Source of the DNA: Candidatus Omnitrophota bacterium
Lineage (GTDB): Bacteria > Omnitrophota > Omnitrophia > Omnitrophales > Aquincolibacteriaceae
Assembly (NCBI GenBank): GCA_903819565.1
Contig: CAIJDY010000030.1
Location: 7,128-71,127, forward strand
Reading direction: 5' to 3'
DNA length: 64,000 nucleotides
Made by a program: the position numbers and the translations under genes. Each line of letters opens with the position of its first letter. Position 1 is the first letter of the stretch. The notes below the pieces were generated by a model, which saw only the letters and a list, made by a program, of their open reading frames with translations, ran no database searches and was not told the origin of the DNA. Of this stretch, positions 18,372 through 42,854 are shown piece after piece.

Positions 18372-19670
18372 TCAGCGGGGGACCGGAGGGCGGCGGTTTT
18401 TCTTCCGGTTCAGGATGTCACAGATCAGGAAGGCCACGACCGTCGCGATTAGGAGGGAAAGCGTCTTGTCGGCAATCTCGATGCAGAAGGTCTCGGAAAG
18501 AGACGCGGTGATCCGGCTGTGGATGAATTTGTGGAAGAAGTCGTAAACCGGGAGCGTGTTCACGTCGGGTTTGAGGCGGAAAACTGTGGCAACCGCCTGG
18601 ACGAGAAGGGCGTTGACGGCGCCGATCCCGATGCCGGCCGCGAGAAGTTTGTGTAACTTCCGTGGGCTGATCCATCCGAGACGCTCCAAAAGCCACGTCG
18701 CCGAAGCGATCCAGACACTGTTGAGCAGCCAGAACCAGGAAGTGGTTCCCCAGAAAGTGAACGCCATGAGGAGGTGGTAGAGGATCGCGGTAAAGATCCC
18801 GATCCAGAAACCGCCCAATAGCACGGCCAGGGAAGTCCCCCAGCTATCCAGGAAAAAAGGGAGATGCCATTTGATCAGCAGGACCGAAGCGCTGAAATTG
18901 AACAGCATCGCGCTCAACATGATCCCGAACGGCCGCTGCCGGAAAGGTTTGAAGAGAAAGTTCTCGACCGCCTCGATGTCTTCTTTGATCATTTCTTCCA
19001 TTTTGGAGTGGGGCTCGGGGTCTTGTTCGTGAATCCCGCTGATCGCGTTGATCAAACGGCCGATCAATACCGCCAGGTAAGTCACGCCGAGGATCATTTC
19101 CAGCGTCACGAAGCTCCGCACAAAAGGAGAGATTGCCGTGATGTCCCCGAAACCGGCGGTTGCTTGAACGACGAAACTGAAGTAGACGTATGTCGACATG
19201 AGACCCTGCCCTCCTCCCCGCGAAAAAAAGAAGGCGTTAGGCAGAAGCATTTCGGAAAGCCCGTAAATACAAGCGAAAAAGATCCCTATCAGGATGTACC
19301 CGCTGATGGCGCCGTAAAGTTCGTTAAGCGTCACATGCTTCACGGAAAGGACCTGCTTCAGGAGGACAATGCACGTGTAACCGATGAAAACGGTCATGCA
19401 GGTCAGGCCTGTGATTTTAATAAGCGGGTGATGTATAAAAACATACGTCCACTGGGTCAGGAAGCAGGGGATCGCGAACAGGACGCTCAAAGCGGTGTAG
19501 CGGAAATCATAGCTCATGGAGAAAATGGCCGCGACGAGGAGGCCGGTCAGGATCAGACGAAGGGCGATCTGCCCCAGCAGGGACTGTTCCAGCAAAGGGA
19601 GCAGGAGAATGTACCCGGTCAGCAGGATCAACAGCAAAAGATTGTTGTTCTTTTTGAACGGTTCGAACAT
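18372..19670 (-). CDS. Polytopic membrane protein containing a K+-channel-type pore domain (Ion_trans_2-like)
   Basis: …YFSFVVQATAGFGDITAI… matches the T-x-G-[YF]-G-D selectivity-filter signature preceded by a pore helix and followed by a TM helix; rest of 432-aa protein is additional TM helices. Confidence 0.5.
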   Translation of the reverse strand: MFEPFKKNNNLLLLILLTGYILLLPLLEQSLLGQIALRLILTGLLVAAIFSMSYDFRYTALSVLFAIPCFLTQWTYVFIHHPLIKITGLTCMTVFIGYTCIVLLKQVLSVKHVTLNELYGAISGYILIGIFFACIYGLSEMLLPNAFFFSRGGGQGLMSTYVYFSFVVQATAGFGDITAISPFVRSFVTLEMILGVTYLAVLIGRLINAISGIHEQDPEPHSKMEEMIKEDIEAVENFLFKPFRQRPFGIMLSAMLFNFSASVLLIKWHLPFFLDSWGTSLAVLLGGFWIGIFTAILYHLLMAFTFWGTTSWFWLLNSVWIASATWLLERLGWISPRKLHKLLAAGIGIGAVNALLVQAVATVFRLKPDVNTLPVYDFFHKFIHSRITASLSETFCIEIADKTLSLLIATVVAFLICDILNRKKNRRPPVPR

Positions 19671-29720: not shown

Positions 29721-31796
29721 TCAGCGTTCAAATTCGTTCGCGAACAGTTTGAGGCTGAGCAGCGATCGCTTGATCTCCCCCCAGTTAAGAAAAGGAAGGA
29801 TGTCCGAGTAGCCGTCCGTCCAGACACGGTGACGTTCCGTCAGCCGGTTGGCGATAGGCTCCCACCCGTGATCGACGACCAGCGTCTGGAACTTCGTGCC
29901 GTCCCATGTGAACGCCATCCAATGCGAAGGAAGTCCGGCGGGCTGTCCGGAGGTCATGCGGTAGAGCACCCACGCCTTCGCATCCCTGGCGGCTTCCACG
30001 AGGACCGGCTCCAGCCGGATAAAGCGGTTGCTGATATGGAACAGCAGCAGGCCGCCTTCGTTCAAATGTTCCTTGTATCCGGCGACGGCTTCCCGGGTCA
30101 CAAGATGGAAGGGGATGGAATCGCCGCCGAACGCGTCCACGACGAGGACGTCGTATTTGCGCTCCGGCGCTAGCTCAAGCGAGCGGCGCGCATCGCCATA
30201 GAAGACGCTGATCTTTCCCCGCGCGTTCGCCAGAAACGTAAAATATTTTTTGGCGATGACGCCGATGTCGGGATCCAATTCATAATAATCCATGGTGTCG
30301 CCGGGTTTCGTGTAGATCGCGAGCGATCCCGTGCCGAGGCCGATGATGCCGCAGGATTGAAAACGGAATTTCTCCGAGGAGAAAAGTTCTCCGGCCGGCG
30401 ACGTCGGACTGTAGAAGGAACTTGGCACAAGCTCCAGACCCGGTACTCGAAGCTGCGCTCCGTGCAGGGTCGTTCCGTGGCTCAGGATCCGCACGTCCTT
30501 CGTGTCGGTCACTTCGTAGATCCCGTAGTAATTCCGGGCCTTGAAAACGGCGTGGGAACTGGCGCCGGTTATTTCGGGAATCCAAAATATGCACAGCAAT
30601 GCCGGTACGATCGCCAGGGCTCCTGTTCGTAAATGGGCCAGCCACCTGGTCCCCGCCGTCTTTTTTTCGGCGATCCATACGGCCGCGGCGATCAGCGTCA
30701 GGGCCAAAAGGTATTCGATGACTGACTTCGAAACGAGCGGCATGACCCAGCTGGTCAGGAGTCCGCCGAGGAACCCTCCGAACGAGAGCGTCAGATAGAA
30801 CGCGGTCAGATGGCGTTCCGAAGACGGTTTGTGGGCCGCCAGCCGGTTCTGGCAATAAAGGCACAGAAGGAACAGGGCCGTGCTAAAAACGATCAGTTCG
30901 ATCGCGACCGGGAAACTCTTTTTTTTGACCGCGAAAAATAACAGGGCGCCGCCGGCGAGCAGGAAGGAAATATTTTTGAGTATCCATGGGGGGCACCAGG
31001 GCTTCGGCTTAAAACTCAGCACGAAAGCGAAAAGATAAATGGCCAAAGGCAGGACCCAGAAAAGAGGGACCGGGGCGATCGCGTAAGTGATGATGTTCGT
31101 GACGGCCATGAAAAGCATGACGCCGGCGGCGCTGAATAAAAACCAGAGGCCCATTTTCGTGCCGGGCATTTCTTTTTCCCGAGTTGAAGATACAGGCGCG
31201 GGAGGATTCACCGGGACGAGCATGAAGAGCAGAACATTAAAAACCGCCAGGAACCCGTAGCCCCACCGCCAGAACTGTTCCTGCTGCGGCAGCGTCAGAC
31301 ACAATTCAAATATAAAAGGATAAGTCAGGAGCGCGCCGAGGGAGCCGGCGTTGGAGGTCGCGTAAAGGGCGTAGGGGTTGGACCGCTGCGGGAGCGAAGA
31401 GGCCGCGAGCCACGATTGAAGTGCGACGCTGATCGTTGACAGGACGAAAAAGACCGGCCCGATGCTGGCCAGCAAACGCCCAAAAACGCTTCCGGCCAGG
31501 AAAGCGGAATTTTCCCCGCCGCCGATCCCGAGGACGTGTCCCGGGAAAAACAAAAAGGGAAGGAACACGAGCAGGAGCTGGATCTTCCGGTAGACGCGGG
31601 CGCCCCATTTTTGGACCGCGCAATGGACGGAGACGTATCCCAGCAGCAAAAAAGCCTGGAAGAAGACCAGGCAGGCGCCCCACACGAAATAACTTCCGCC
31701 GTAAACGGGGAGAAGCTTTTTGGCGATGATGAGCTCGATCTGGAACAGGAGGAACGCGGCAAGGAACGTGATTGTGTGCAAAAGGAAAATCGCCAT
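29721..31796 (-). CDS. Fused MFS-like membrane domain / spermidine synthase-like (aminopropyltransferase-fold) protein
   Basis: 691 aa; ~14 TM N-terminal region followed by C-terminal …KYDVLVVDAFGGDSIPFHLVTREAVAGYKEHLNEGGLLLFHISNRF… resembling spermidine synthase/class I MTase fold. Confidence 0.65.
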   Translation of the reverse strand: MAIFLLHTITFLAAFLLFQIELIIAKKLLPVYGGSYFVWGACLVFFQAFLLLGYVSVHCAVQKWGARVYRKIQLLLVFLPFLFFPGHVLGIGGGENSAFLAGSVFGRLLASIGPVFFVLSTISVALQSWLAASSLPQRSNPYALYATSNAGSLGALLTYPFIFELCLTLPQQEQFWRWGYGFLAVFNVLLFMLVPVNPPAPVSSTREKEMPGTKMGLWFLFSAAGVMLFMAVTNIITYAIAPVPLFWVLPLAIYLFAFVLSFKPKPWCPPWILKNISFLLAGGALLFFAVKKKSFPVAIELIVFSTALFLLCLYCQNRLAAHKPSSERHLTAFYLTLSFGGFLGGLLTSWVMPLVSKSVIEYLLALTLIAAAVWIAEKKTAGTRWLAHLRTGALAIVPALLCIFWIPEITGASSHAVFKARNYYGIYEVTDTKDVRILSHGTTLHGAQLRVPGLELVPSSFYSPTSPAGELFSSEKFRFQSCGIIGLGTGSLAIYTKPGDTMDYYELDPDIGVIAKKYFTFLANARGKISVFYGDARRSLELAPERKYDVLVVDAFGGDSIPFHLVTREAVAGYKEHLNEGGLLLFHISNRFIRLEPVLVEAARDAKAWVLYRMTSGQPAGLPSHWMAFTWDGTKFQTLVVDHGWEPIANRLTERHRVWTDGYSDILPFLNWGEIKRSLLSLKLFANEFER

Positions 31797-31903: not shown

Positions 31904-32560
31904 TCAGCGCTTCCTTTCATCCACGACCTGTTCAACCCCGGGGTTTGGACGGGGTGCTTCCGGCGGCGCCGCGTCCTCGGGAGGAAGGATCTTCACGGGC
32001 CTTCTTACCGATTCTTCCGTGGAGAACTCGTCCTGGCAGCGCGGACAGCGGCTTATCTTCGAGAAGCGAACGCAGTAGTGTTGGATCCCGACCGCGGCGT
32101 GATCGTTCTCGAAACATTTCGGACAGACGCACTCTCCGGAGGATTTGTGCCGGTAGACGGTGACGCCCGTCGGGAGTTTGTGGGCCTCATAAGGTTCGCC
32201 GCCGTTCCCGGGCAGCCGCTGCGACAGCTCCCTGAGCTTCGCGTTCTCTCTCTGGAGCTCGAGCCTTGACGTCTCGAGACCGGATAATTTTTCGTGGATC
32301 GAAAGAATGCCTTCCTGAAGGAGGTCCATCTGCTGTTTAAGAAGCGCGAGGTCGAAACCGACGGGGGAACGGTCCAGCAGCAGTTCACCGCGGGGGGCGC
32401 GCGGAGACGCTTTCTTCTTTCGCGGCGTTTTCTTTTCCTTCTGGGGCCGGAAGTAATCCAGGGAAGCGATTTTATCCCCGGGGATTTTTTCGAGAGCTTT
32501 TTTCATCGCGTCGCTGACATATTCTTTTTTCATGGCAAACCGTAAGGTCCTCCGGGCCAT
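31904..32560 (-). CDS. Hypothetical coiled-coil protein with C4 zinc-ribbon (CxxC…CxxC)
   Basis: Lys-rich N-term, central coiled coil (…LELQRENAKLRELSQRL…), CVCPKC…CPRC; start may be internal (MKKEYV…); lies directly downstream of the response-regulator array on the same strand. Confidence 0.4.
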   Translation of the reverse strand: MARRTLRFAMKKEYVSDAMKKALEKIPGDKIASLDYFRPQKEKKTPRKKKASPRAPRGELLLDRSPVGFDLALLKQQMDLLQEGILSIHEKLSGLETSRLELQRENAKLRELSQRLPGNGGEPYEAHKLPTGVTVYRHKSSGECVCPKCFENDHAAVGIQHYCVRFSKISRCPRCQDEFSTEESVRRPVKILPPEDAAPPEAPRPNPGVEQVVDERKR

Positions 32561-32648
32561 TCAAGTATCGGTCATGCCGGGATTTTCTAGAGTGCGGAGT
32601 GCCGGGGGCCGTTCCGGTGCCGGAAGAGGGGGGATCGGGTTTCGGGGA

Positions 32649-33020
32649 CTATCCGAGGAGCTCGTCGATGGCTTGGAACAGCTGTTCGCCGAAAAAAGGC
32701 TTCGTGAGCACATGCTTGATATGGGTGACGAATTTTGTCGCTTCCAAATAGTTTTCCCCGCTATTAAGCGCTCCGCCTCCTGACATGGCGATGATCTTCA
32801 CGGCGGGGAAGTCCTTTTGGATCTCCTGGATGGTCGTAACGCCGTCTTTGACCGGCATGATAATGTCCGTAATCACAAGGTCGACGGGGGTTGTTTTGAG
32901 CGCCTGGATCCCCTTTTCCCCGTCCTCCGCGGTGATCACCTGATAGTTTTTGCGCTCCAGCATTTCCTTCATCGTTTCCCTGAACAAAGGATTGTCTTCG
33001 ATCACAAGGATGCGGGGCAT
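32649..33020 (-). CDS. Single-domain CheY-like response regulator (copy 1)
   Basis: MPRILVIEDNPLFRETMKEML…DLVITDIIMPVKDG…IIAMSGGG…: receiver domain with acidic pocket and phospho-acceptor Asp. Confidence 0.85.
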   Translation of the reverse strand: MPRILVIEDNPLFRETMKEMLERKNYQVITAEDGEKGIQALKTTPVDLVITDIIMPVKDGVTTIQEIQKDFPAVKIIAMSGGGALNSGENYLEATKFVTHIKHVLTKPFFGEQLFQAIDELLG

Positions 33021-33393
33021 GGGAGCGTTCTCTTTCGAAGGAGTTCGTTGATGGCTTGCAATAATTGTTCGCTGGAAAAAGGTTTTTGGAGCACATGCTT
33101 GATATGGTTGATGTATTTCGCCGCTTCCAGGTAGCCATCACCCTTATTGATGACCCCGCCTCCCGACATGGCGATGATCTTGACCGAAGGGAAACCCGTT
33201 TGAATATTCTTGATGGTCGTGACCCCGTCCGAGACCGGCATGATAATGTCCGTGATCACGAGGTCCACCGGGACGCTTTTGAGGGTTTGGATCCATTGGC
33301 AGCGGTAATGACCTCATAGTGATTCTGTTCCAGCGCTTCTTTCAGTATTCCCCGGAAGGAGGCGTCATCTTCGATCACAAGGACGCGTGCCAT
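33002..33393 (-). pseudogene. CheY-like response regulator (copy 2) disrupted by a small deletion/frameshift
   Basis: ATG at 33393 encodes MARVLVIEDDASFRGILKEALEQNHYEVITAANGSKPSKASRWTS* ; receiver sequence resumes in another frame (IQTLKSVPVDLVITDIIMPVSDG…) and continues as the 88-aa ORF 33002-33268. Confidence 0.55.
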
Positions 33394-33399
33394 GAAATC

Positions 33400-33507
33400 G
33401 TTTCCTTTCTGAGACGGTCGTTGGTGTCTTGCAATAACGGTTCGCCGAAAAACGGTTTCGGAAGCAACCGGTTGATAGGGGGAATGTCTTTCGTCGTTCC
33501 CGAGAGG
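33400..33507 (-). pseudogene. 3'-terminal remnant of a further response-regulator copy
   Basis: Minus-strand frame reads …RLLPKPFFGEPLLQDTNDRLRKETISWHASL*, paralleling the C-termini …HVLTKPFFGEQLFQAIDELLG of the intact copies; no N-terminal portion present. Confidence 0.35.
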
Positions 33508-33879
33508 CTACCCCAGGACCTTCTCGATGGTTTGGAACAACACTTCGCCGGAAAAAGGTTTTTGGAGCACATGCTTGATGTGGGTGATGAACATCGTGGC
33601 TTCCAGGTAGGTTTCCCCTTTATTGATCGCGCCGCCCCCTGACATGGCGATAATCTTGGCCGCGGGGAATTCCCTTTGGATGTCCTGGATGGTCGTGACG
33701 CCGTCTTTGACCGGCATGATGATGTCCGTGATCACCAGGTCGACCGGGTTGCTTTTAATCGCCTGGAGCCCTTTGTCCCCGTCTTCCGCGGTGATGACCT
33801 GATGGTTTTTCCGTTCCAGCATTTCCTTCAGGGTCTCCCGGAACGAAGCGTTGTCTTCGATGACAAGGATGCGTGCCAT
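33508..33879 (-). CDS. Single-domain CheY-like response regulator (copy 3)
   Basis: MARILVIEDNASFRETLKEMLERKNHQVITAEDGDKGLQAIKSNPVDLVITDIIMPVKDG…; ~80% identical to copy 1. Confidence 0.85.
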   Translation of the reverse strand: MARILVIEDNASFRETLKEMLERKNHQVITAEDGDKGLQAIKSNPVDLVITDIIMPVKDGVTTIQDIQREFPAAKIIAMSGGGAINKGETYLEATMFITHIKHVLQKPFSGEVLFQTIEKVLG

Positions 33880-33893
33880 ACAGGCTCCCTTCT

Positions 33894-36800
33894 TTATGCG
33901 TGAGCAGCGACGCGAGGTAAAAAGATGCTAACGACGGTTCCTTTGCCGACTTCGCTTTCCACCGCGATCTTTCCGTTGTACCGAGCGACGACGTTATGGG
34001 TCATGAAAAGTCCGAGGCCGGTCCCTTCGCCGATTTCTTTAGTCGTAAAAAACGGCTCGAAGATGCGGTCGAGCGTTTTCGGGTCCATGCCGCGCCCCGT
34101 GTCTTCGAGGGTCATTTTAACATAGTCGCCTCCCTCAAAGAGCGCATATTTTTTCGCCGTTTGTTCATCCGCCAGGATCCACGAAAGGCTGAAGGTGATG
34201 ATCTCTTCTTTCGCGGGATCCAGCGCCTGGTAGCTGTTGGAAAGGATGTTGAGCAGGGCGTGTTGTATCTCGTTCGGGTCCGCCCGGACAAGTCCGCAGT
34301 GGGGAGCCAGATTCTCACGGAGCTGAATGTCCCCTTTGACCGAGGCCCGGAACAATTTCAGCGTGTTCGCGACGACGGGGTAGATCTCGATCTCGTTGAT
34401 GTCGCGTTCCTGCGCCCGGCTGAAAGAAAGCATTTGCCCGATCAATTGTTTTGCGCTGTCGACCCCTTCGATGGCCCGGAGAAGGTCCTTGTGTGTCCGG
34501 CTGCCCGGCGCGATATCTCCGAGCGCCATCTCCGTGCAGCCGCGGATCGAGGCCAGGATGTTATTGAAATTATGGGCGATCCCGTTGGCCATGGTCCCGA
34601 TCGATTCCATTTTTTGAGCCTGCATCAGCTGTTTGATAAGCATTTCCTTTTCTTGGATGGCTTTCAGCTGTTCCGTGATGTCATGCATGACGGCGACCGC
34701 GCCTAAAATCCTGCCGTCTTCCGCTTTGATGGGAGAGGCCTCGGCGATGACATGCCGTTGGGGGCCGCCTTTCGGGGCGATCACCATCCCGGCATCGTGG
34801 ACTTTTTCACCGCGGAAAGCCCGCAGCAAGGGGATCGTGCGGACATCTAAGGGGGTGATCCCGTCTTCCTCATAGAGGTTATAATGACCGGCCCAGTTCT
34901 CCTGCGATAAAGAGCTCTCGGCGCTTAACTCGTGCCATTCGCGGGCCGTACGGTTAAAGAGGATCAGTTCGCTTTTTTCGTTACAGGCGATCACTCCCGC
35001 GTTCATGTTCTCAAGAAGCGCGGAGGAAAAAAGCTGTTCCAGTGCCAACTTTTCCTCAGCTTGTTTTCGCTCGGTGATGTCCTGGAACGTGCCCAAGACG
35101 TAGGAGCGTTCCCCCTCGACCACCGGTGCGATCCCCCGCACTTCGGTCCAGATCATCCTGCCTGTGCCCGTGATGCCACGGCACTCTATAGCAAATCGTT
35201 CGCCGGTGGCCAGACAGCGGGCGATGCTGTCCTTGATCTTGGGAACGTACTCCGGCAGATAAAATTTCAGACCTTCTGTCAATCCGAGCTGGTTCCCTTT
35301 GGGATATTCGATGATTTCGAAAACTCCTTCGGTCCATTCGAGATAGTCTGTCAGAGGATTCGCTTTCCACCCCGACAAGCGGGCGATCCGCTGCGTTTCC
35401 TGGAGAAAGACTTGGCTTTCCCGCAACGCCTCTTCCGCGCGTTTGCGTTCGGTGATGTCGCGAAACGTCCAGATCCTTCCGTAGTATTTTCCGTCCTTGC
35501 CCCAAACGGGCGCGGAATACCTGTCCAGGACCATCCCGTTCTTGAACTCGATCTCGTCACGGCTGGTCTCTCCCGGGTGGTTGTAAAGATCCCGGACCCT
35601 TTCGAGAAAAGAATCGGGGTCCCGGGTCAGGCTGACCACATACTTGAGCAGCGCGGCATCATCCGGGTCCTCCGCGATGTGTTGGGGGACATTGAAAATC
35701 TCGAGCATCCGCTGGTTCGTAAGGACCCGCTGCTGTTTCTCGTCGACCACCAGGATCCCGTCGAGGGACGCGTTCGTTTGAGCTTCCAGCAAAGCCGTTT
35801 TCGATCGCAAAGCCACGTCGGCCTGACGGATCTCCGTCATGTCCCTGTCCGATCCGCGATATCCGGTGAGATTGTTCTGAGAGTCCAAAAGCGGGACACC
35901 GTTCGTGATCATTAAAAGGATCCGTCCGTCCTTGGCTTGAACCTGGTTGGGCAAATTGCGGAACGAGCCCTTTCGCTCAAAAACGGCCAGGGTGATTTTT
36001 CTAAAAACCTCGCGACCTTCTTCGGGGTGGAGGTCGTAAAAATATTTTTTTCCGACCAATTCCTGCGCTTCGTAGCCGATGACTTTTTTGCAGCTCTGGC
36101 TCAGGTAGGTGTAGAGGCCCGCGGCGTCAGTTTCCCAGATCATTTCCGAACTCAGGGCCGCGATCTGATCGAAACGTTCTTTGCTATCCCGCAACAAGTC
36201 TTCCGCTTTCTTGCGCTGGGAGATGTCGTTCAAAAGAGCGACGACATATTCCACGTTTCCCTGGGGATCCCGTACGCAGCCCACGGCCAGATCGACCCAG
36301 ATCACGGCGCCGTTTTTGCGGACGAACCGTTTCTCCAGGTCGTACTGTTTGATTTCGCCAGACAGCAGGCGGTTAAATTGTGCGACGTCCTCGGCAAGGT
36401 CATCGGGGTACGTCATTTCCGCCCAGGTCATGTCGACAAGTTCCTCCCGGGAATAACCCAAAAGGGAACAGACCTGATCATTTACCTGGATCCAGCCTTT
36501 TGTGGGAGAGGTGATCGCGATGCCGGTCAGGGCGAGATCAAAATAACTGCGAAAGCGGGCCTCACTTTTTCGGAGGTCCGATTGCTGGGCCTGGATGCTT
36601 GTGTCGGTGTGGCGGAGCAGGATGTAGATGAATCCCAGGATCAGCGTCATCAGCACCAGAGCGCTCATTCCTCCGAGGATTAACGGGCGTGAAAAGTTCT
36701 CCTTGTCAGTCGAAAGATCGCGTGTGACGATCAGATGGCCGACCTCCTTGCCCGAAGCGTCCGCAAGAGGCAGTGCGGATACCCGCCACTCATTTCCGTC

Positions 36801-38261
36801 GATGGTGACTTTCTGGCCCGGGTCTCCACGGATATGTTCGCCCGCCGGGCCTTGATCCGCGAGGGGCACGAAGGCATCAGGAAGCTTGCCGAAAGAAGTG
36901 TAGAGCACGACGTTCTGTGACAAACGGTCCCACTCGGGTTCGCGTCCGAGCAGGCGCATGCTCTCTTCCCAATTCTGGCGGTTCAAAAGTTGCTTCTGGA
37001 TGGTGACGGTCAAGTGTTTTCCGGACCGGAGGTACAACGTGCGCAGGATGTCTTCGATCTCTTTCCCGAGTTCCACATAACCGACGAGCGTGCCCGCTTC
37101 GAAAACCGGCTGCACCACCCGCAAGGGGAAGGTCCCTAATGTGCCCAACTCGACGCCAGATGAGGCTTTGCCGGTCCGTTCCGCTTCGAGGGCCGTAAAA
37201 CGGTCGATCCGGTCGCCGTGGTTTTCCGGTCTGTGGACGCGCAAGAGACAGACGCGGTTCTTGTCTAAAAAATAAAAATGGGTGATGCCGCTATCCCGGC
37301 GCAAGGTTTCGAAGATAGGGCTCCAAACGGCAAGCAGGTTTTCAATGTTCCCTTCGCGCAGGGCCTTTTGCGCGCGCGGATCTGTGGCAATAGCTTGCGT
37401 CGCCACCTCCAGACCGGAGGATTGCTGGTGCAGGGCCACCTGGAGATCGTTGGAAACGTCGGCCATATCGGCCGCAAAACTGTCAGCCAAGCGTTGCCGC
37501 TGTTGTTGCCAAAGTAGAAATCCGGCGATCGCGGTAAAGACGATCACAAGGGTTGCCAGCGGAACCAACAGACGCCTCATCACGGGTTTTGGCGAAGCTT
37601 TGACACGGCGGTTGGAAATAAAGCCGGTGGCCAAGCCGATAAGAAGTACGAGCATGAACCCCACGGGTTGGGCCACCTTTGCGGCCACATTCCATTTCCA
37701 GACGCGGGCGTCAATATCCATGCCCAGAACGGCGATGAGGGTGTTGGTTTTCGGGTCGATCACCGGGTCCAGTGCTGAAACCCACATGCCCCAGCGATCC
37801 GTGACGGGGCCTTCGACGGTCGCGATCTTGGAGTCGAAAACACGGCGATAATTTTCCGAGACTTCCGTGTAGGGTTGCCCCGGCGGGGAATAGTCCTTTG
37901 AATGGACCGGTTCGCTGTCCACGAAGAAAAATACCGAACCGTCAGCTTTGCGTCCCATGAAATAGACGAACCGGCAGAGCGGGTTGGCCGAACGGACGGC
38001 GGTCAGTTGTTCCTTGAGTCGCAGGTAGTGGGGGTTGTCAAGGTCCGCCGCCGTCCCCGAGAGGGACCGGAGGTGATTGAAATCGACGGATCGTGCCACC
38101 AGGTGTGTTTCCAGAAGCAGGCTTTCGCGCATTTTGCGGTCGGTTTGCGTGACCGTCCACCAGGTAAAGAACGTTCCGGCGACGAAGATGGTCAGAAACA
38201 GCAGCGTTGGTAAGCGCGGGTATCTGATCCTGGAGAGAAGCGCCGTCTCCTTATCTTTCAT
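33894..38261 (-). CDS. Multi-sensor histidine kinase: two extracytoplasmic sensor domains, 4 TM, about five PAS/PAC domains, HisKA + HATPase_c (no receiver)
   Basis: 1455 aa; TM helices at ~25-45, ~215-235, ~245-268 and ~560-583; repeated PAS-type blocks with …DITERK… PAC ends; H-box …GIAHNFNNIL…, N-box …NILSNSYQA…, G1 …DTGRGM…, G2 …GTGLGL…. Confidence 0.9.
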   Translation of the reverse strand: MKDKETALLSRIRYPRLPTLLFLTIFVAGTFFTWWTVTQTDRKMRESLLLETHLVARSVDFNHLRSLSGTAADLDNPHYLRLKEQLTAVRSANPLCRFVYFMGRKADGSVFFFVDSEPVHSKDYSPPGQPYTEVSENYRRVFDSKIATVEGPVTDRWGMWVSALDPVIDPKTNTLIAVLGMDIDARVWKWNVAAKVAQPVGFMLVLLIGLATGFISNRRVKASPKPVMRRLLVPLATLVIVFTAIAGFLLWQQQRQRLADSFAADMADVSNDLQVALHQQSSGLEVATQAIATDPRAQKALREGNIENLLAVWSPIFETLRRDSGITHFYFLDKNRVCLLRVHRPENHGDRIDRFTALEAERTGKASSGVELGTLGTFPLRVVQPVFEAGTLVGYVELGKEIEDILRTLYLRSGKHLTVTIQKQLLNRQNWEESMRLLGREPEWDRLSQNVVLYTSFGKLPDAFVPLADQGPAGEHIRGDPGQKVTIDGNEWRVSALPLADASGKEVGHLIVTRDLSTDKENFSRPLILGGMSALVLMTLILGFIYILLRHTDTSIQAQQSDLRKSEARFRSYFDLALTGIAITSPTKGWIQVNDQVCSLLGYSREELVDMTWAEMTYPDDLAEDVAQFNRLLSGEIKQYDLEKRFVRKNGAVIWVDLAVGCVRDPQGNVEYVVALLNDISQRKKAEDLLRDSKERFDQIAALSSEMIWETDAAGLYTYLSQSCKKVIGYEAQELVGKKYFYDLHPEEGREVFRKITLAVFERKGSFRNLPNQVQAKDGRILLMITNGVPLLDSQNNLTGYRGSDRDMTEIRQADVALRSKTALLEAQTNASLDGILVVDEKQQRVLTNQRMLEIFNVPQHIAEDPDDAALLKYVVSLTRDPDSFLERVRDLYNHPGETSRDEIEFKNGMVLDRYSAPVWGKDGKYYGRIWTFRDITERKRAEEALRESQVFLQETQRIARLSGWKANPLTDYLEWTEGVFEIIEYPKGNQLGLTEGLKFYLPEYVPKIKDSIARCLATGERFAIECRGITGTGRMIWTEVRGIAPVVEGERSYVLGTFQDITERKQAEEKLALEQLFSSALLENMNAGVIACNEKSELILFNRTAREWHELSAESSLSQENWAGHYNLYEEDGITPLDVRTIPLLRAFRGEKVHDAGMVIAPKGGPQRHVIAEASPIKAEDGRILGAVAVMHDITEQLKAIQEKEMLIKQLMQAQKMESIGTMANGIAHNFNNILASIRGCTEMALGDIAPGSRTHKDLLRAIEGVDSAKQLIGQMLSFSRAQERDINEIEIYPVVANTLKLFRASVKGDIQLRENLAPHCGLVRADPNEIQHALLNILSNSYQALDPAKEEIITFSLSWILADEQTAKKYALFEGGDYVKMTLEDTGRGMDPKTLDRIFEPFFTTKEIGEGTGLGLFMTHNVVARYNGKIAVESEVGKGTVVSIFLPRVAAHA

Positions 38262-38509
38262 CGGAAAGGAAACCCCATGAAGCCTCCGTCGAGCATACGT
38301 TGAGGGCGTTCAAAGCGCAAGACGCTACGCGCCAATATAGTTCGCGGTCAGGCACAAGTCAAGGTTACCCGGAGCTGTGTAGTGTTCGCACGAGATCGGG
38401 AGGATCTGGAAATCTAGGTTCTGTTGACATTCCCTTCTCCCACAAGGGAGGAGGTTGGCTTTGGGAGAAAAAAGGCGAAAAGGAAAAACACAAGAAAGTC
38501 TGGATGTTT

Positions 38510-40480
38510 TTACTCGTACCTCAGCGCGGAGATCGGATCCAGGGCCGCGGCTTGTTTGGCGGGCCAAAGGCCGAAAATAATACCGACTGATGCCGAACAA
38601 AAAAAGGCCAGGAGTAAAGAGTCCAGCGTGATAATCATTTTCCATTGTGCGATCAGGGCGATCAGCCAGGAGATTACCGCGGCGAGCAAGATGCCCGCGA
38701 GTCCGCCCAGAAAAGTGACCAGGACCGCCTCAACAAGGAATTGCATCAGGATATCGCGCGGCGTCGCGCCGATGGCTTTGCGCAGGCCGATCTCACGGGT
38801 CCTTTCCTTGACCGAGACCAGCATGATGTTCATGATCCCGATGCCGCCGACCACCAGCGAGATCGCGGCCACGCAGCCGAGCAGGACGGAAAAGGTTTTT
38901 GTCGTGCTCGAGAGGGCCTGCTGGATGTCCGCGTAATTCCGGATATTGAAACTGTCGTAACGGTCCGGGGTCAGGTGGTGCCTGCGAATGATCATGGAGT
39001 TGATCGCCTCTTCGGCCAGGGGCATTTTCCCAAGGTCCGTGATTTCGGCATCGATCTGGTCGAGGTAGTCTTTCCCCATGAGCCGCCGCATGGCCGTCAT
39101 GAGCGGGATTACGACCACGTCGTCCTGGTCATGGAAGGCATTGGCGCCAAGGGAAGGAAGGATCCCGAGGACCTGGAAGCTGACGCGATTGATCTTGATC
39201 GCTTGTCCGATGGGATCTTCACCGCCGAAAAGTTCGCGTTGGACCGTTTGTCCGATCAGGACCAGCCGTTGCCGCGTCTGGTTCTCGCCCGCGGTAAAAA
39301 AGCGGCCGGCCGTGGGTTCCTGATTCCTCACGCTCGCGTATTCGGGAGTCACTCCGATCACCTGCGTGCTCCAGTTCTTATTCCCGTAGACCAGCTGTCC
39401 CTGCCCCGTGACTTGGGGGGCGACTTTCTTCACATACGAGATCTCTCCGATCGCCTTCACGTCCTCAAAATCCAGACGTGTTGCGGCTCCGGCCTCGGTG
39501 CTTACCCCGTGGACCTTGACCGAACCCGGGCGGACCGAAAGCAGGTTGGAGCCCAGGCGCGACAATTGCTCGGTGATCGATTCCCGCGCGCCCCGGCCGA
39601 GCGCGAGCATGGTGATTACGCACGCGACCCCGATCAGCACGCCCAGCATCGAAAGGAAGGACCTTAATTTATTGCTGAGGATCATGCGGCAGGCTTGCTT
39701 GAAATGGTCCCGGAATTCTTCGAGGCTGTATTTTTTCTCTTTGGAGAGCTCCCGGGAGGGGAGTCCCGGAGGGAGCGGCCCGGACCGCCCGGAGGACCCG
39801 GTTTTTTTTTCATCGCTGACGATTTTGCCGTCATGCATGCGAATGACCCTTTCGGCGGTATTTCCGACATTTTCGTCATGGGTCACCAGCACGATGGTCA
39901 TGCCCCGGGCGTGAAGCGATTGAAAGATCGCCATGATCTCTTTTCCCGATTGAGAATCAAGATTTCCCGTGGGTTCGTCGGCAAGGATCATCAGTGGATC
40001 GTTCACCAGCGCCCGGGCGATCGCGACCCGCTGCTGCTGGCCGCCGGAAAGTTCGTTCGGTCGGTGCTGCACCCGCGCGGCCAGGCCCACCTGCTCCAGC
40101 ATTTTTCGTGACCGCGGGATATCTTCTTGGCCTCGTGTGCCGGAATAGATCAGCGGCAGGCAGACATTTTCCAGCGCCGTGGAACGCGTCATAAGATTAA
40201 ATTGCTGGAACACAAAACCGATCACGCGGTTCCGGAGGAAGGCGTATTCCTCTTCCTGCAGTCGGGTCGTATCCTTCTCGAGTAGACGGATCGTGCCGCT
40301 GTCCGGCGTATCGAGAAAACCGAGAAGGTGCATTAACGTGGATTTTCCAGATCCTGACGGCCCCATGATCGCGACGAACTCCCCGGCATCGATATTCACG
40401 GAAACGCCCTGTAGTGCGCGGATATCCACTTCGCCAATGCGGTAGGTCTTCGATATGTTCTCGACTTCGACTAATTTCAT
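38510..40480 (-). CDS. MacB-family ABC transporter, fused ATP-binding and permease domains (FtsX-like)
   Basis: N-term ABC: [10 protein letters not shown] (Walker A), [15 protein letters not shown] (signature), [11 protein letters not shown] (Walker B); C-term 4-TM FtsX-like permease with large periplasmic loop. Confidence 0.9.
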
Positions 40481-40522
40481 CAGAACCTCTAGAACGGGTT
40501 ACGATCCGGTCTTGCGACGGTC

Positions 40523-41521
40523 CTAACGCCCCTGTTTGTCACTCTTTTTGGGCGCGCCGCCCATCGCGAACGGGCTGACGGACATCTCTTTTTGTTTCTT
40601 CTGGACGATCTGGATCTCCTGGCCGTCGCTCAGGCCTTCCGTGATCTCGGTCACCCGGCCGTCCGAATCTCCGATGCGGACCGGAAGCGGGACCAGTTTC
40701 CCGCCGAACGTTTTTTCGTAAGCAGCGAACTCCGCGTTCTTGGGTTTGGGGACTTTCCGCGGCCATTCCACGATCGCTTCGGAGGGCGCCAGGAGAACCT
40801 CTTTTCTTTCTTTCACGATAAAAGTCACGTTCGCGGTCATCCCGCTGCGGAACGCCGGTGGGATCTTTTCGGGAAGGATATCCACCGCGTAGACGTTCAC
40901 GTTATTCGTGAGCTTGCTTTCGTACATGATGTGGTCGACTTTTCCCCAAAAGGTTTCCTTGGGATAGGCATCCAGCTGGATGCCGGCTTTTTGGCCGAGC
41001 GCGATCAAGGCAAGGTCGGTCTCATCGACCAGGGCCTCTACGATCAACCGGTCGGAAAGGACTACCACAGGATCTGCCGTGGTCACGGTCTGTCCCGGTT
41101 CCACCGCGCGGACGATGATTGTTCCATCCAGTGGAGCAAGGAGCGGCGCCATTTTGTAGGCCTCTTCCCACCGTTTCATTGTTTCGGCCCCCCGCGCTCT
41201 CGCGGCATCCAGCAGTGCGGCCCTTTCGGTGGAGCTCATCTGGGCAAGGATCTGCCCCTTTTTCACTTCATCCCCTTCCTGGACCAAGACTTCCTCCACG
41301 CGGCCCGGGATCGGCGGTTTGATCTCTACGCGGTTGTACGGCTTCACCGTTCCCGTAGCGGTCACTTTGACCTCCAGGTCGCCTCTGTAAACTTTTGCGG
41401 AACGGAGCGCTTGTAGGGGATCTTTTCCGGGCGCGCAGGAAGAGAATATTTTGATCAGGATAAAGACGAGGATCAGGAAGACGCCGAGCTTCCATCGTTT
41501 TAATAGATTATTTAATCGCAT
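40523..41521 (-). CDS. Efflux periplasmic adaptor (HlyD/MacA-family membrane fusion protein)
   Basis: 332 aa; N-terminal anchor, coiled-coil/lipoyl-like …GTVKPYNRVEIKPPIPGRVEEVLVQEGDEVKKGQILAQM… typical of RND/MacA adaptors; overlaps upstream TolC-like gene by 14 nt. Confidence 0.8.
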   Translation of the reverse strand: MRLNNLLKRWKLGVFLILVFILIKIFSSCAPGKDPLQALRSAKVYRGDLEVKVTATGTVKPYNRVEIKPPIPGRVEEVLVQEGDEVKKGQILAQMSSTERAALLDAARARGAETMKRWEEAYKMAPLLAPLDGTIIVRAVEPGQTVTTADPVVVLSDRLIVEALVDETDLALIALGQKAGIQLDAYPKETFWGKVDHIMYESKLTNNVNVYAVDILPEKIPPAFRSGMTANVTFIVKERKEVLLAPSEAIVEWPRKVPKPKNAEFAAYEKTFGGKLVPLPVRIGDSDGRVTEITEGLSDGQEIQIVQKKQKEMSVSPFAMGGAPKKSDKQGR

Positions 41522-42854
41522 TCAGGTCATCCTCCAAAGTTTTGCCCCGGACCAGTTCCCAATTCGCCTGGGCATTCAGCACATCGGCAAGCCCTTGCAC
41601 GTAATCATTCTCCGAATTATTCTGCTCCTGCTCCGCCGTATCAAAATCCTGGAAACTCATCAATCCGGAAGCGTATTCCGCGCGGACGATTTCCGCTCGT
41701 TTCTGTGAGGCCTCCAGGAATTTCCTGAGAACCTCGATGCTTTCGACCGCATCCACGTATTTGGTCCAGGTGTCCGCGAGTTGGGCGACTGCTTCGTCGC
41801 GGGCGCTCACGGTGGCCGCGTGTGCCGCATCGTAATCCGCTTTGGCTTTGCGGATCGCGTTCACGTTCTTTCCACCGTTAAAAAACGGAACGGCAATGTT
41901 CAGTCCCCAGGAGTGTTCGCTTTTTAAATTAGACGCCCGTTCCCCGGAAACGCCATAATCCATGGTTCCAGTCGCTTGAGGCCAGACGACCGATTGCACC
42001 GCGACCACATTGGCTTTGGCGGATTCCGCGATCTTTAAAAGCCGCTGTACCTGGGGAGTGTTTTCGGCGATCTCTGCGTAGTCCGGCTCTTTCATCATCG
42101 CCGCGGGGATCGTCTGTTCGAGAGAATCCTGGATCGATACCGGGAGCACGAAGTCGCCGCCGCACTCGCGTCCGAGACGTATCGTTTGGCTTTCGATGTG
42201 ACGTTCCGCCGTTCGGACATCGAAGGCAGCACGGTCCGCCAGGGCTTCGGCCCGCAAAGCGGAGCCCAGGTTTTCGCGCCCGGCTTCATAACGGAGCCGG
42301 ACCATTTCCGCGTTATGTTTTCGGCGTTCCAGGATCCCCTGGTTCACCTTCAAAAGGCGGTTCCAGCGGAGAACGTCGACATAGGCAAGCTTCAATCCGT
42401 TGCGAACATTCGCGCTGGTGACGACGTACTGGAACTTTGCAGCATCCAGGTCTTTCCGGGCTTTGAGGAAGCTTCCGGTTGTTCCGAACCCGTTGAACAG
42501 CGATTGATTGCCGACAATGTCCAATGAAAGACTGTCCTGCAACGTGTTCCCGCCCCCGCCGCCGCTAAAGCCACCGCCGAATGAGGCGTTGCGGGAAGCG
42601 CTGCGCTGAAGGTCGCCCTCGAAAGAAGGCAGGTAATTCCCGAAAGCGATATCACGGCTTCTCGCGGTAGAAGTCACGACATACCGGGCGCTTTGAAGAT
42701 CAGGATTGAACTGGAGCGTCTGGCGGACCAGGGAGTCCCAAGACAGGACCCGGGGTTCGGCGTTGCGTTCGATCCTCGCCTCCGGCAAACGGACTGTGAG
42801 GCATCCTGACAAAAGGAAACCTGTCAATATCGTTGCGAATATTTTCTTAAGCAT
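41508..42854 (-). CDS. TolC/NodT-family outer-membrane efflux lipoprotein
   Basis: Lipoprotein signal MLKKIFATILTGFLLSGC; 448 aa with two-repeat coiled-coil/beta pattern of outer-membrane factors. Confidence 0.8.
   Translation of the reverse strand: MLKKIFATILTGFLLSGCLTVRLPEARIERNAEPRVLSWDSLVRQTLQFNPDLQSARYVVTSTARSRDIAFGNYLPSFEGDLQRSASRNASFGGGFSGGGGGNTLQDSLSLDIVGNQSLFNGFGTTGSFLKARKDLDAAKFQYVVTSANVRNGLKLAYVDVLRWNRLLKVNQGILERRKHNAEMVRLRYEAGRENLGSALRAEALADRAAFDVRTAERHIESQTIRLGRECGGDFVLPVSIQDSLEQTIPAAMMKEPDYAEIAENTPQVQRLLKIAESAKANVVAVQSVVWPQATGTMDYGVSGERASNLKSEHSWGLNIAVPFFNGGKNVNAIRKAKADYDAAHAATVSARDEAVAQLADTWTKYVDAVESIEVLRKFLEASQKRAEIVRAEYASGLMSFQDFDTAEQEQNNSENDYVQGLADVLNAQANWELVRGKTLEDDLNAIK

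What the first reader, a model, noticed from the sequence alone, without database searches (positions are those of the whole stretch)
32649..33879. Tandem array of near-identical single-domain response regulators in mixed states of decay beside a 1455-aa kinase
Reading 5'->3' on the minus strand: an intact CheY-like gene (33879-33508), a 3'-terminal remnant of another copy (33507-33400), a copy with a small deletion/frameshift after codon ~33 (33393-33002), and an intact copy (33020-32649). Junctions are stereotyped: each unit's reading frame runs into the next ATG as …CPASL*/…WHASL* over ATGCCCCGCATCCTTGTGA / ATGGCACGCGTCCTTGTGA. This points to repeated unequal crossing-over on a ~375-bp unit. 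A coiled-coil zinc-ribbon protein (32560-31904) follows on the same strand as a possible output partner. Such an array could be a phosphate-sink buffer for the giant kinase, or an actively recombining locus.
Basis: seen in the sequence. Interest (0 to 1): 0.55.

Follow-up and report, generated by a model that had tools for sequence, protein, structure and literature searches.

The report
Old response-regulator paralogue cluster, partly decayed
Downstream of a large sensor kinase in an uncultivated Omnitrophota bacterium sit two intact and two dead copies of a small CheY-like signalling gene; they are old, diverged paralogues undergoing ordinary gene birth-and-death, not a near-identical or actively recombining repeat.

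Summary
On the minus strand it runs: kinase, intact receiver A, a 3' remnant (b'), receiver B broken by a 10-nt deletion after codon 34, intact receiver C, then a coiled-coil zinc-ribbon ORF (Z).

It is not an assembly artefact. The same 1.1-1.5 kb, frameshift and remnant included, is 100% identical in nine contigs from eight assemblies.

The copies are not near-identical: 73-83% at the nucleotide level, 67-79% at the protein level, dS 0.6-0.9. B groups with the receiver upstream of Z in related genomes (88% bootstrap), and A with the receiver after the kinase in another relative (77%). A+B+C never form a clade. Relatives carry one or two receivers here.

So this is an old paralogue cluster with one ancient 373-bp-register duplication (b'/B) followed by decay. 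The most likely function is a branched kinase-to-A-and-C pathway, which is inferred and untested.

Z is not family-less. It belongs to PHROG 1244, the family of the anti-phage pore protein Rip1, and it has its own perfectly conserved 22-nt upstream element. Distant relatives of Z are not next to receiver genes.

The array is ordinary. Z is the more interesting lead.

The parts
38334..38362 (-). Sigma-70-like promoter match (TTGACT-17-TATATT, 10/12) about 70 nt upstream of the kinase start. Candidate operon promoter.
   Evidence: A consensus match only, not evidence of function.
33894..38261 (-). Sensor histidine kinase, 1455 aa: dCache_3, several PAS domains, HisKA and HATPase_c. It has no receiver domain, so it is not a hybrid kinase.
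   Evidence: Orthologue fragments in relatives are 58-75% identical at the protein level.
33508..33879 (-). RR-A: intact single-domain receiver, 123 aa, starting 14 nt after the kinase stop. Carries E8-D9, D52, S80 and K107.
   Evidence: Groups with P0002, the only receiver after the kinase in L091/L092 (85% identity, 77% bootstrap).
33394..33500 (-). b': decayed 3' remnant (last ~35 codons) of a B-type receiver. It begins 7 nt after the stop of A, contains a 1-nt gap, and runs into the ATG of B.
   Evidence: 93/127 identical to the B 3' end plus junction; score 82 against shuffles 15 +/- 2.4. (tblastn 50% over 38 aa, E 2e-5).
33002..33393 (-). RR-B: receiver pseudogene. A 10-nt deletion between 33293 and 33292 (after codon 34) shifts the frame. 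The family stop codon is lost, and the 3' end overlaps the start of C by 19 nt. Otherwise the reading frame is open.
   Evidence: Orthologous to P0007/P0008, the receivers upstream of Z in relatives (88% bootstrap). The same frameshift is present in all eight assemblies.
32649..33020 (-). RR-C: intact single-domain receiver, 123 aa, with all catalytic residues. 79% identical to A at the protein level.
32552..32573 (-). 22-nt element GACCGATACTTGAATGGCCCGG upstream of Z. It is 100% conserved in the window, L093 and L096, at a variable distance (about 20 to 125 nt) from the Z start codon. Candidate promoter or operator.
31904..32533 (-). Z: 209-aa protein with a basic N-terminal extension, one long helix and a four-cysteine zinc ribbon. 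A distant member of PHROG 1244, the Rip1 family.
29721..31796 (-). Fused MFS/spermidine-synthase-like membrane protein, 691 aa. It is the conserved downstream anchor of the locus (86-92% identical in relatives).

Best explanation
This is a two-component operon in an uncultivated Candidatus Omnitrophota bacterium. A large dCache/PAS sensor histidine kinase is followed by a small family of CheY-like, receiver-only response-regulator paralogues undergoing birth-and-death evolution.

History of the array (inferred):
- The paralogue lineages are old. The B lineage split from the A/C lineages before these species diverged.
- A B-type unit was later duplicated once in a 373-bp register, giving b' and B.
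- b' then lost its 5' two-thirds and decayed.
- B was knocked out more recently by a single 10-nt deletion.
- Related genomes retain one or two receivers at this locus. One relative has lost the whole 1.6-kb b'-B-C-Z block.

How it works (inferred, not shown):
- The working parts today are the kinase, A and C.
- On sensing its signal, the kinase autophosphorylates and transfers phosphate to D52 of both A and C, a one-to-many branched pathway.
- A and C have no output domain, so they must act by protein-protein contact or by competing for phosphate.
- B and b' are dead.
For: Anatomy and domains.

The structure is real:
- 100% identity in nine contigs from eight assemblies.

The copies are old:
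- 73-83% nucleotide identity, with shared exact runs of at most 30 nt.
- dS 0.60-0.94 and dN/dS 0.19-0.29 between copies.
- TRF finds no array.

Phylogeny (NJ, 500 replicates):
- B+P0007+P0008: 88%.
- A+P0002: 77%.
- A+B+C: 0%.

Copy number and synteny in relatives:
- HK-RR-M691 in L091/L092, colinear with the window except for 33503-31905.
- HK-RR1-RR2-Z-M695 in the ERZ1426827 contig.
- RR-Z-M691 in L093.
- HK plus a single 130-aa RR in L097 and L098.

Other points:
- b' is homologous to the 3' end of B plus the junction.
- B is open apart from the 10-nt deletion, and B-P0007 dN/dS is 0.19, which suggests recent inactivation.
- A and C keep E8-D9, D52, S80 and K107 (alignment).
- Their closest solved relatives are single-domain regulators: a CheY, T. 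maritima RR468 (3DGE) and CheY2.
- Taxonomy: helicase homologues at 84-91% identity are all named Omnitrophota/Omnitrophica.
Against: - No expression or phosphotransfer data exist. That both A and C are substrates of this kinase rests only on adjacency and intact catalytic residues.
- The placement of C is unresolved: A+C+P0002 38%, C+P0005 15%. C could be a younger duplicate of the A lineage.
- dS values are near saturation and come from only ~120 codons. Within-array dS (0.60-0.65 for A-C and A-B) is slightly lower than for the A-P0002 pair (0.76). This could reflect shared codon usage or some old gene conversion.
- The order here (B-type then C) differs from the ERZ1426827 relative (P0004 then B-type), so the rearrangement history is not fully reconstructed.
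- All eight assemblies may sample one clonal population, so absence of within-population variants is weak evidence.
Confidence: 0.78

Rival explanations
1. One reading: a young, actively recombining tandem array made by repeated unequal crossing-over on a ~375-bp unit, with copy number in flux in the population.
For: - 373-nt register between the b'-B and B-C junctions.
- Copy number differs between related genomes.
- Several short contigs end at 32849-32853, inside the longest exact run shared by A and C (23 nt).
Against: - Copies are 17-27% diverged and dS is at least 0.6.
- Shared exact runs are only 21-30 nt, poor substrates for homologous recombination.
- A+B+C are never monophyletic, and B and A have orthologues elsewhere.
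- Eight assemblies are identical, and several blocks carry 50-200 kb contigs through the locus.
- TRF sees no repeat.
Confidence: 0.05
2. The frameshift and remnant are assembly or sequencing artefacts of a simple two- or three-copy array.
For: None found. This is only the general risk attached to repeats in short-read metagenome assemblies.
Against: - The same sequence, to the base, is seen in ENA, JGI and Logan assemblies of different runs and with different assemblers.
- The copies share no exact run longer than 30 nt, so k-mer collapse is not expected.
- The remnant is only 73% identical to B, which is not what a collapse would produce.
Confidence: 0.02
3. B is still functional, either through a programmed -1 ribosomal frameshift that joins the 45-aa and 88-aa frames or as a truncated receiver started at the internal GTG (33268).
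For: - The two frames overlap by about 20 codons, and a -1 shift would restore the receiver C-terminal part.
- Both halves are otherwise free of stops, and dN/dS against P0007 is 0.19.
Against: - Reading the overlap directly (CAC TAT GAG GTC ATT ACC GCT GCC AAT GGA TCC AAA CCC TCA AAA GCG TCC CGG TGG ACC TCG TGA) shows no X XXY YYZ slippery heptamer.
- The joined product would lack 3-4 residues of helix alpha-2.
- The 88-aa ORF lacks the E8-D9 acidic pocket.
- Orthologues P0007 and P0008 are normal uninterrupted 123-aa genes.
Confidence: 0.04
4. The receivers nearest to Z (B-type in relatives, C here) form a functional module with Z. A phosphorylated single-domain regulator would gate or localise the Rip1-like coiled-coil zinc-ribbon protein, so that Z is the output of the pathway.
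For: - In three of the four loci that carry close Z homologues, a receiver gene lies immediately upstream of Z: the window, L093 and the ERZ1426827 contig.
- b'-B-C-Z is present or absent as one 1.6-kb block relative to L091/L092.
- Single-domain regulators are known to act by binding partner proteins (titles and abstracts of PMC12802240 and PMC5964349).
Against: - Z has its own 100%-conserved 22-nt upstream element at a variable distance from its start, which suggests independent transcription.
- L096 has Z with no receiver gene in the 240 nt available upstream.
- More distant long-form relatives P0126 and P0130 sit next to NTP_transf_5 and VIT1 genes, not receivers.
- The characterised family member Rip1 works as a single protein triggered by phage rings (PMC13434031).
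- The B-type partner is a pseudogene here.
Confidence: 0.12

Closest known systems
HK853-RR468 of Thermotoga maritima (PDB 3DGE): a histidine kinase with a cognate single-domain response regulator in one operon
   Same: A sensor kinase is followed directly by a receiver-only regulator of ~120 aa. RR468 is among the best solved-structure matches to A (E 4e-11). A has the same catalytic residue set.
   Different: Here there are several paralogous receivers, two of them dead, instead of one. The kinase is far larger (dCache plus multiple PAS). No biochemistry exists for this system.
Multiple CheY paralogues with phosphate-sink roles (Sinorhizobium meliloti CheY1/CheY2, Agrobacterium fabrum CheY1/CheY2, Rhodobacter sphaeroides CheY1-6)
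   Same: Several receiver-only paralogues are presumably served by one kinase. S. meliloti CheY2 (1P6Q) is a detectable solved relative (E 3e-9). A paper on the Agrobacterium paralogues was found (PMC8225110). The sink concept itself is from my own knowledge (Sourjik & Schmitt 1998).
   Different: Those regulators depend on CheA and sit in chemotaxis operons. Here the kinase is a classical HisKA transmembrane sensor and no che genes are nearby. Sink behaviour is untested.
Single-domain response regulators acting as hubs or protein-binding switches (Caulobacter MrrA; Myxococcus EpsW)
   Same: Receiver-only proteins whose output must be a protein-protein interaction or phosphate routing (PMC5964349, PMC12802240, PMC4671073).
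   Different: No orthology. Those are single genes, not tandem paralogues with pseudogenes.
Lineage-specific expansion and loss of two-component genes by duplication (Alm et al. 2006, PMC1630713)
   Same: Local duplication followed by divergence and loss is the described general mode of two-component gene family evolution (abstract).
   Different: That work concerns whole kinase repertoires. This locus is one small example that happens to have visible decay intermediates.
Rip1 (ring-interacting pore 1), a prophage-encoded single-protein anti-phage defence; PDB 9OOX; PHROG 1244. Comparator for Z only.
   Same: - Z and its three close homologues hit phrog_1244 at E 1e-12 to 1e-13.
- The Rip1 fragment hits the same PHROG at 5e-44.
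- Rip1 is the top hit for Z by both sequence profile (E 0.01) and Foldseek (E 2e-4).
- Both have a coiled-coil helix followed by YE.H..VYR.K..C..C.E...C.RC, with four invariant cysteines.
   Different: - Z is 209 aa against 164 aa. A ~60-residue basic extension stands where short members have their N-terminal segment (which forms an amphipathic helix in Rip1).
- The context is chromosomal, beside two-component genes, rather than between prophage terminase genes.
- The host is Omnitrophota rather than Proteobacteria.
- Identity to the short members aligned is only 18-26%.
- The AF2 model is of low confidence (pLDDT 61.6).

Membership tests
CheY-like single-domain response regulator (receiver only, Pfam PF00072) | Significant match to the receiver domain across its whole length | tested here: met
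   A: E 4.8e-21, profile positions 1-110 of 111. C: E 3.2e-23. The 88-aa ORF of B matches only profile positions 43-111.
CheY-like single-domain response regulator (receiver only, Pfam PF00072) | Catalytic residues present: acidic pair after beta-1, phospho-acceptor Asp at the end of beta-3, Ser/Thr at the end of beta-4, Lys-Pro after beta-5 | tested here: met
   A and C carry E8-D9, D52, S80 and K107-P108, read from the alignment. In B the acidic pair and D52 lie in different reading frames.
CheY-like single-domain response regulator (receiver only, Pfam PF00072) | No output domain | tested here: met
   The proteins are 123 aa and the receiver domain covers residues 4-118.
CheY-like single-domain response regulator (receiver only, Pfam PF00072) | Phosphorylated by a cognate histidine kinase | not testable with these tools
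   The only evidence is adjacency: A starts 14 nt after the kinase stop, and the kinase-then-receiver order is conserved in L091/L092, L097 and L098.
Phosphate-sink response regulator | Competes with another regulator for phosphate from the same kinase and drains it (fast autodephosphorylation or reverse transfer) | not testable with these tools
   A kinetic property. No sequence signature was tested.
Young tandem repeat array maintained by unequal crossing-over | Near-identical units with long shared exact tracts | tested here: not met
   Units are 73-83% identical, the longest shared runs are 21-30 nt, and TRF finds nothing.
Young tandem repeat array maintained by unequal crossing-over | The copies within one genome are each other's closest relatives | tested here: not met
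   A+B+C form a clade in 0% of bootstrap replicates. B groups with P0007/P0008 (88%) and A with P0002 (77%).
Young tandem repeat array maintained by unequal crossing-over | Copy-number polymorphism within the population | tested here: not met
   Nine contigs from eight assemblies are identical. Raw reads were not examined, so minor variants cannot be excluded.
Rip1 / PHROG 1244 family (for Z) | Significant match to the family profile | tested here: met
   - All four Z-family members match phrog_1244 at E 1e-12 to 1e-13, profile positions 36-148 of 157.
- The Rip1 fragment matches the same PHROG at 5e-44.
- 24 of 26 sampled relatives of Z match it.
Rip1 / PHROG 1244 family (for Z) | Coiled-coil helix followed by a four-cysteine zinc ribbon | tested here: met
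   C137, C140, C163 and C166 are invariant in 26 sequences. The AF2 model has a confident helix at 62-106 and small beta strands at 115-171 of moderate confidence.
Rip1 / PHROG 1244 family (for Z) | N-terminal amphipathic helix that forms the pore | tested here: inconclusive
   The profile match starts at position 36. Z has instead a ~60-residue basic extension with two short, low-confidence helices.
Rip1 / PHROG 1244 family (for Z) | Prophage context, between the small and large terminase genes | tested here: not met
   The neighbours are receiver genes, a fused MFS/spermidine-synthase-like protein, a kinase and MacAB-TolC. tblastn of Z against 50,697 phage records finds nothing. The context criterion comes from PMC13434031.
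Rip1 / PHROG 1244 family (for Z) | Binds phage portal or small-terminase rings and confers phage resistance | not testable with these tools
   Needs experiment.

The most novel reading that the evidence does not exclude
The conserved pairing of a single-domain receiver gene with Z in this Omnitrophota clade may reflect a new kind of module. In it, a two-component phosphorylation signal would control a chromosomal, N-terminally extended relative of the anti-phage pore protein Rip1. This would couple an environmental or envelope sensor kinase to a pore-forming or ring-binding effector. The decay of the B-type receiver and the presence of C in its place would then be partner turnover within that module.
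Probability: 0.1. Interest if true: 0.6.

Novelty: new member of a known kind. Interest (0 to 1): 0.2.

Why it matters
The array itself matters little. It is a tidy example of birth-and-death evolution in a two-component gene family, with all stages side by side: an intact gene, a freshly frameshifted gene, and a nearly erased remnant. It also shows that a 'repeat with stereotyped junctions' seen by eye can be ancient.

Practical value:
- The frameshift and remnant are genuine and should be annotated as pseudogenes rather than 'fixed'.
- The ORF called a zinc-ribbon output partner is a distant, non-prophage, N-terminally extended member of the recently characterised Rip1 anti-phage family, in Omnitrophota. 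The review read here describes Rip1 relatives as widespread in Proteobacteria and mostly in prophages.

If Z is functionally tied to the receivers, the locus would become considerably more interesting.

Tried and rejected
- **Tandem Repeats Finder** on 32000-34500: no array. The copies are too diverged.
- **Genome-contig scan with the kinase**: 80 loci, but only modular PAS/HATPase similarity of 50% or less. None carried A-like receivers or Z, so they were useless for synteny.
- **Metagenome-contig scan with the 691-aa membrane protein**: no relatives.
- **Cluster look-up for names and accessions**: none given.
- **Pfam on Z and on the 691-aa protein**: no hit.
- **tblastn of Z against phage genomes**: no match.
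- **Rfam on the whole window**: no match.
- **Foldseek against AFDB50**: library not available.
- **Terminator scan**: a 5-bp stem inside the remnant (33470-33453), but the count of such sites equals the shuffle expectation, so it was dismissed.
- **dN/dS**: intended to date the inactivation of B, but dS is near saturation on ~120 codons, so it is only qualitative.
- **First bootstrap script**: timed out and was redone with my own NJ code.
- **Homology between the 3' flanks of A and C**: would have suggested that A plus its UTR is a copy of C. Only an 8-nt match was found, so the idea was rejected.
- **Conserved ATG at 32560 as the Z start**: rejected, because it is not in frame with Z in L093.
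Full report
**1. What is in the sequence**

Read on the minus strand, 38261-31904 holds the following:
- A 1455-aa sensor histidine kinase with dCache_3, several PAS domains, HisKA and HATPase_c. It has no receiver domain.
- After a 14-nt gap, an intact 123-aa receiver-only gene, A (33879-33508).
- A 107-nt stretch, b' (33500-33394).
- A disrupted receiver gene, B (33393-33002).
- An intact 123-aa receiver gene, C (33020-32649), whose start overlaps the end of B by 19 nt.
- After 115 nt, a 209-aa ORF, Z (32533-31904).

Details of the disrupted parts:
- B differs from A and C by a 10-nt deletion between 33293 and 33292, after codon 34. The deletion splits B into a 45-aa and an 88-aa ORF.
- If the 10 nt are restored, B reads as a complete receiver (...ITAANG[xxx]IQTLKSVPVDLVITD...).
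- b' aligns almost without gaps to the last ~105 nt of B plus the B-C junction and the first 19 nt of the next gene. Identity is 93/127, with a score of 82 against 15 +/- 2.4 for shuffles.

**2. The structure is not an artefact**

Exact-protein look-ups found the locus in many public assemblies. Nine contigs from eight assemblies are 100% identical to the window over 1096-1501 nt, including the frameshift and the remnant. These are ENA ERZ18629311, ERZ18624489, ERZ27313068 and ERZ27245625; Logan ERR4195937, ERR4194907 and SRR5754711; and JGI 3300022555. Several collection blocks hold 50-200 kb contigs that carry the gene.

The copies share no exact run longer than 30 nt, so k-mer collapse is not expected. 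Three short contigs end at 32849-32853, inside the 23-nt exact run shared by A and C. That is the likely reason for the breaks at low coverage. This explanation is an inference and was not tested on reads.

**3. The copies are not near-identical**

- Nucleotide identity is 82.8% (A/C), 76.8% (A/B) and 73.5% (B/C).
- Protein identity is 79%, 69% and 67%.
- Nei-Gojobori dS between copies is 0.60-0.94, with dN/dS 0.19-0.29.
- Tandem Repeats Finder reports nothing.

The 'stereotyped junctions' are real but have a simple cause. A and C end ...LG-TAG. B and b' have lost that stop (CGA AAG / AGA AAG in place of GGA TAG). They therefore read through the ribosome-binding region into the conserved MARILVIE coding sequence of the next gene, out of frame, where GTG ATC supplies TGA.

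**4. Relatives**

The organism is a Candidatus Omnitrophota bacterium. The window's DEAD-box helicase has 84-91% identical homologues, all named Omnitrophota or Omnitrophica.

| Locus | Gene order at this site |
|---|---|
| L091/L092 | kinase (73-75% aa), one receiver (P0002, 85% to A), then the 691-aa membrane protein (89-92%) |
| ERZ1426827 contig (35 kb) | MacB, two extra genes, 1856-aa kinase, P0004, P0008, Z homologue, 695-aa protein |
| L093 | unrelated gene, P0007, Z, 691-aa protein |
| L097, L098 | kinase (58-62%), one 130-aa receiver |
| L090 | an A-like receiver (P0006) alone, beside an ion-channel-like gene and the helicase |

The DNA of L091/L092 is colinear with the window except that 33503-31905 (b', B, C and Z) is absent. 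Copy number at this locus is therefore one, two, or three plus a remnant.

**5. Phylogeny**

In a neighbour-joining analysis with 500 bootstrap replicates:
- B groups with P0007 and P0008, the receivers immediately upstream of Z in relatives (88%).
- A groups with P0002 (77%).
- A+B+C never form a clade (0%), and A+C do so in only 15% of replicates.
- The position of C is unresolved (A+C+P0002 38%).

At least the B lineage and the A/C lineages therefore separated before these species did. The array was not built recently in this genome.

One duplication in the unit's register did occur. b' and B share both their 3' ends and their downstream junctions, with 373-nt spacing. At 73% identity, and with most of b' gone, that event is also old.

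B looks recently inactivated. It has one lesion, is otherwise open, and has dN/dS 0.19 against P0007.

**6. How it most likely works**

Shown:
- A promoter-like site lies upstream of the kinase.
- Gene spacing from the kinase through C is tight.
- A and C have intact catalytic residues (E8-D9, D52, S80, K107).
- The closest solved relatives are single-domain regulators, such as a CheY (6ER7), RR468 (3DGE) and CheY2 (1P6Q).

Inferred:
- The kinase phosphorylates both A and C, a branched one-to-many pathway.
- Because they lack output domains, A and C act by binding partners or by competing for phosphate.
- B and b' are dead.

Whether either copy is a phosphate sink is a kinetic question that sequence cannot answer. 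A programmed frameshift in B is unlikely, because the 20-codon overlap of the two frames contains no X XXY YYZ heptamer (direct reading).

**7. Z**

It is nevertheless not family-less:
- All four family members match PHROG 1244 at E 1e-12 to 1e-13.
- A profile search of the PDB puts Rip1 of phage HK446 (9OOX) first (E 0.01).
- Foldseek with a low-confidence AF2 model (pLDDT 61.6) also puts 9OOX first (E 2e-4).
- The Rip1 fragment taken from that alignment matches PHROG 1244 at 5e-44.
- An exhaustive HMM search found 54 relatives. Of 26 sampled, 24 match PHROG 1244, and the four cysteines are invariant.

Rip1 is described as a single-protein anti-phage defence that assembles around phage small-terminase or portal rings to form a pore (PMC13434031).

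Z differs from Rip1 in three ways:
- It has a ~60-residue basic N-terminal extension, shared with a few 231-265-aa relatives.
- It is not in a prophage.
- It has a 22-nt element (32573-32552) that is 100% conserved in the window, L093 and L096, at a variable distance from the start codon. The coding sequence itself is only 66-72% identical.

The element suggests that Z has its own promoter or operator. More distant long-form relatives are not next to receiver genes. The 'output partner' idea is therefore unsupported, but it is not excluded: in three of the four close loci a receiver gene lies directly upstream of Z.

**8. Verdict**

- The interpretation as an actively recombining array is not supported.
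- The array is an ordinary, old paralogue cluster with visible decay intermediates, so it is a new member of a known kind and of low interest.
- The Rip1-family identity of Z, in Omnitrophota and beside receiver genes, is the most interesting by-product and deserves its own follow-up.

Noticed in passing
window 31904-32533 (-): Z, which has no Pfam match, is a distant member of PHROG 1244. The anti-phage pore protein Rip1 (PDB 9OOX) belongs to the same family. Z has an extra ~60-residue basic N-terminal extension and sits in a non-prophage, Omnitrophota context.
   Followed up: yes
window 32552-32573 (-); also L093 786-807 and L096 104-125: The 22-nt element GACCGATACTTGAATGGCCCGG is 100% conserved upstream of Z in three species whose Z coding sequences are only 66-72% identical. 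It lies about 20 to 125 nt from the start codon. It is a candidate promoter or operator, and no sigma-70 consensus fits it cleanly.
   Followed up: partly
window 33503-31905 compared with L091 700-768: The closest relative with DNA (L091/L092) lacks the whole b'-B-C-Z block and has 69 unrelated nt instead. The block behaves as a single 1.6-kb indel between the stop of A and the stop of Z.
   Followed up: partly
window 32849-32853 and 34381: Several independent short contigs end at the same points. Three end inside the 23-nt exact run shared by A and C, and three begin 502 nt upstream of A, inside the kinase 3' end. The first is probably repeat-induced. The second is unexplained and could mark a strain-variable boundary.
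   Followed up: no
L090 5232-5603: In a closely related genome (helicase 96% identical) an A-clade receiver (P0006, 75% to A) is an orphan. It lies upstream of a 432-aa Ion_trans_2-like gene and the DEAD-box helicase. The window has the same 432-aa and helicase genes (18372-19670 and 17005-18258, minus strand) but no receiver gene there.
   Followed up: partly
ERZ1426827 contig (no DNA held): The orthologous kinase in a relative is 1856 aa with an added GAF domain, and two extra genes (Phosphoesterase, Pyr_excise) are inserted between MacB and the kinase. The sensor part of this kinase is evolving by domain gain and loss.
   Followed up: no
window 38510-42854 (-): A TolC-like, membrane-fusion and MacB-type ABC efflux operon lies immediately upstream of the kinase on the same strand. 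MacB-kinase adjacency is conserved in the ERZ1426827 relative, so the efflux system is a possible regulatory target of the two-component system.
   Followed up: no
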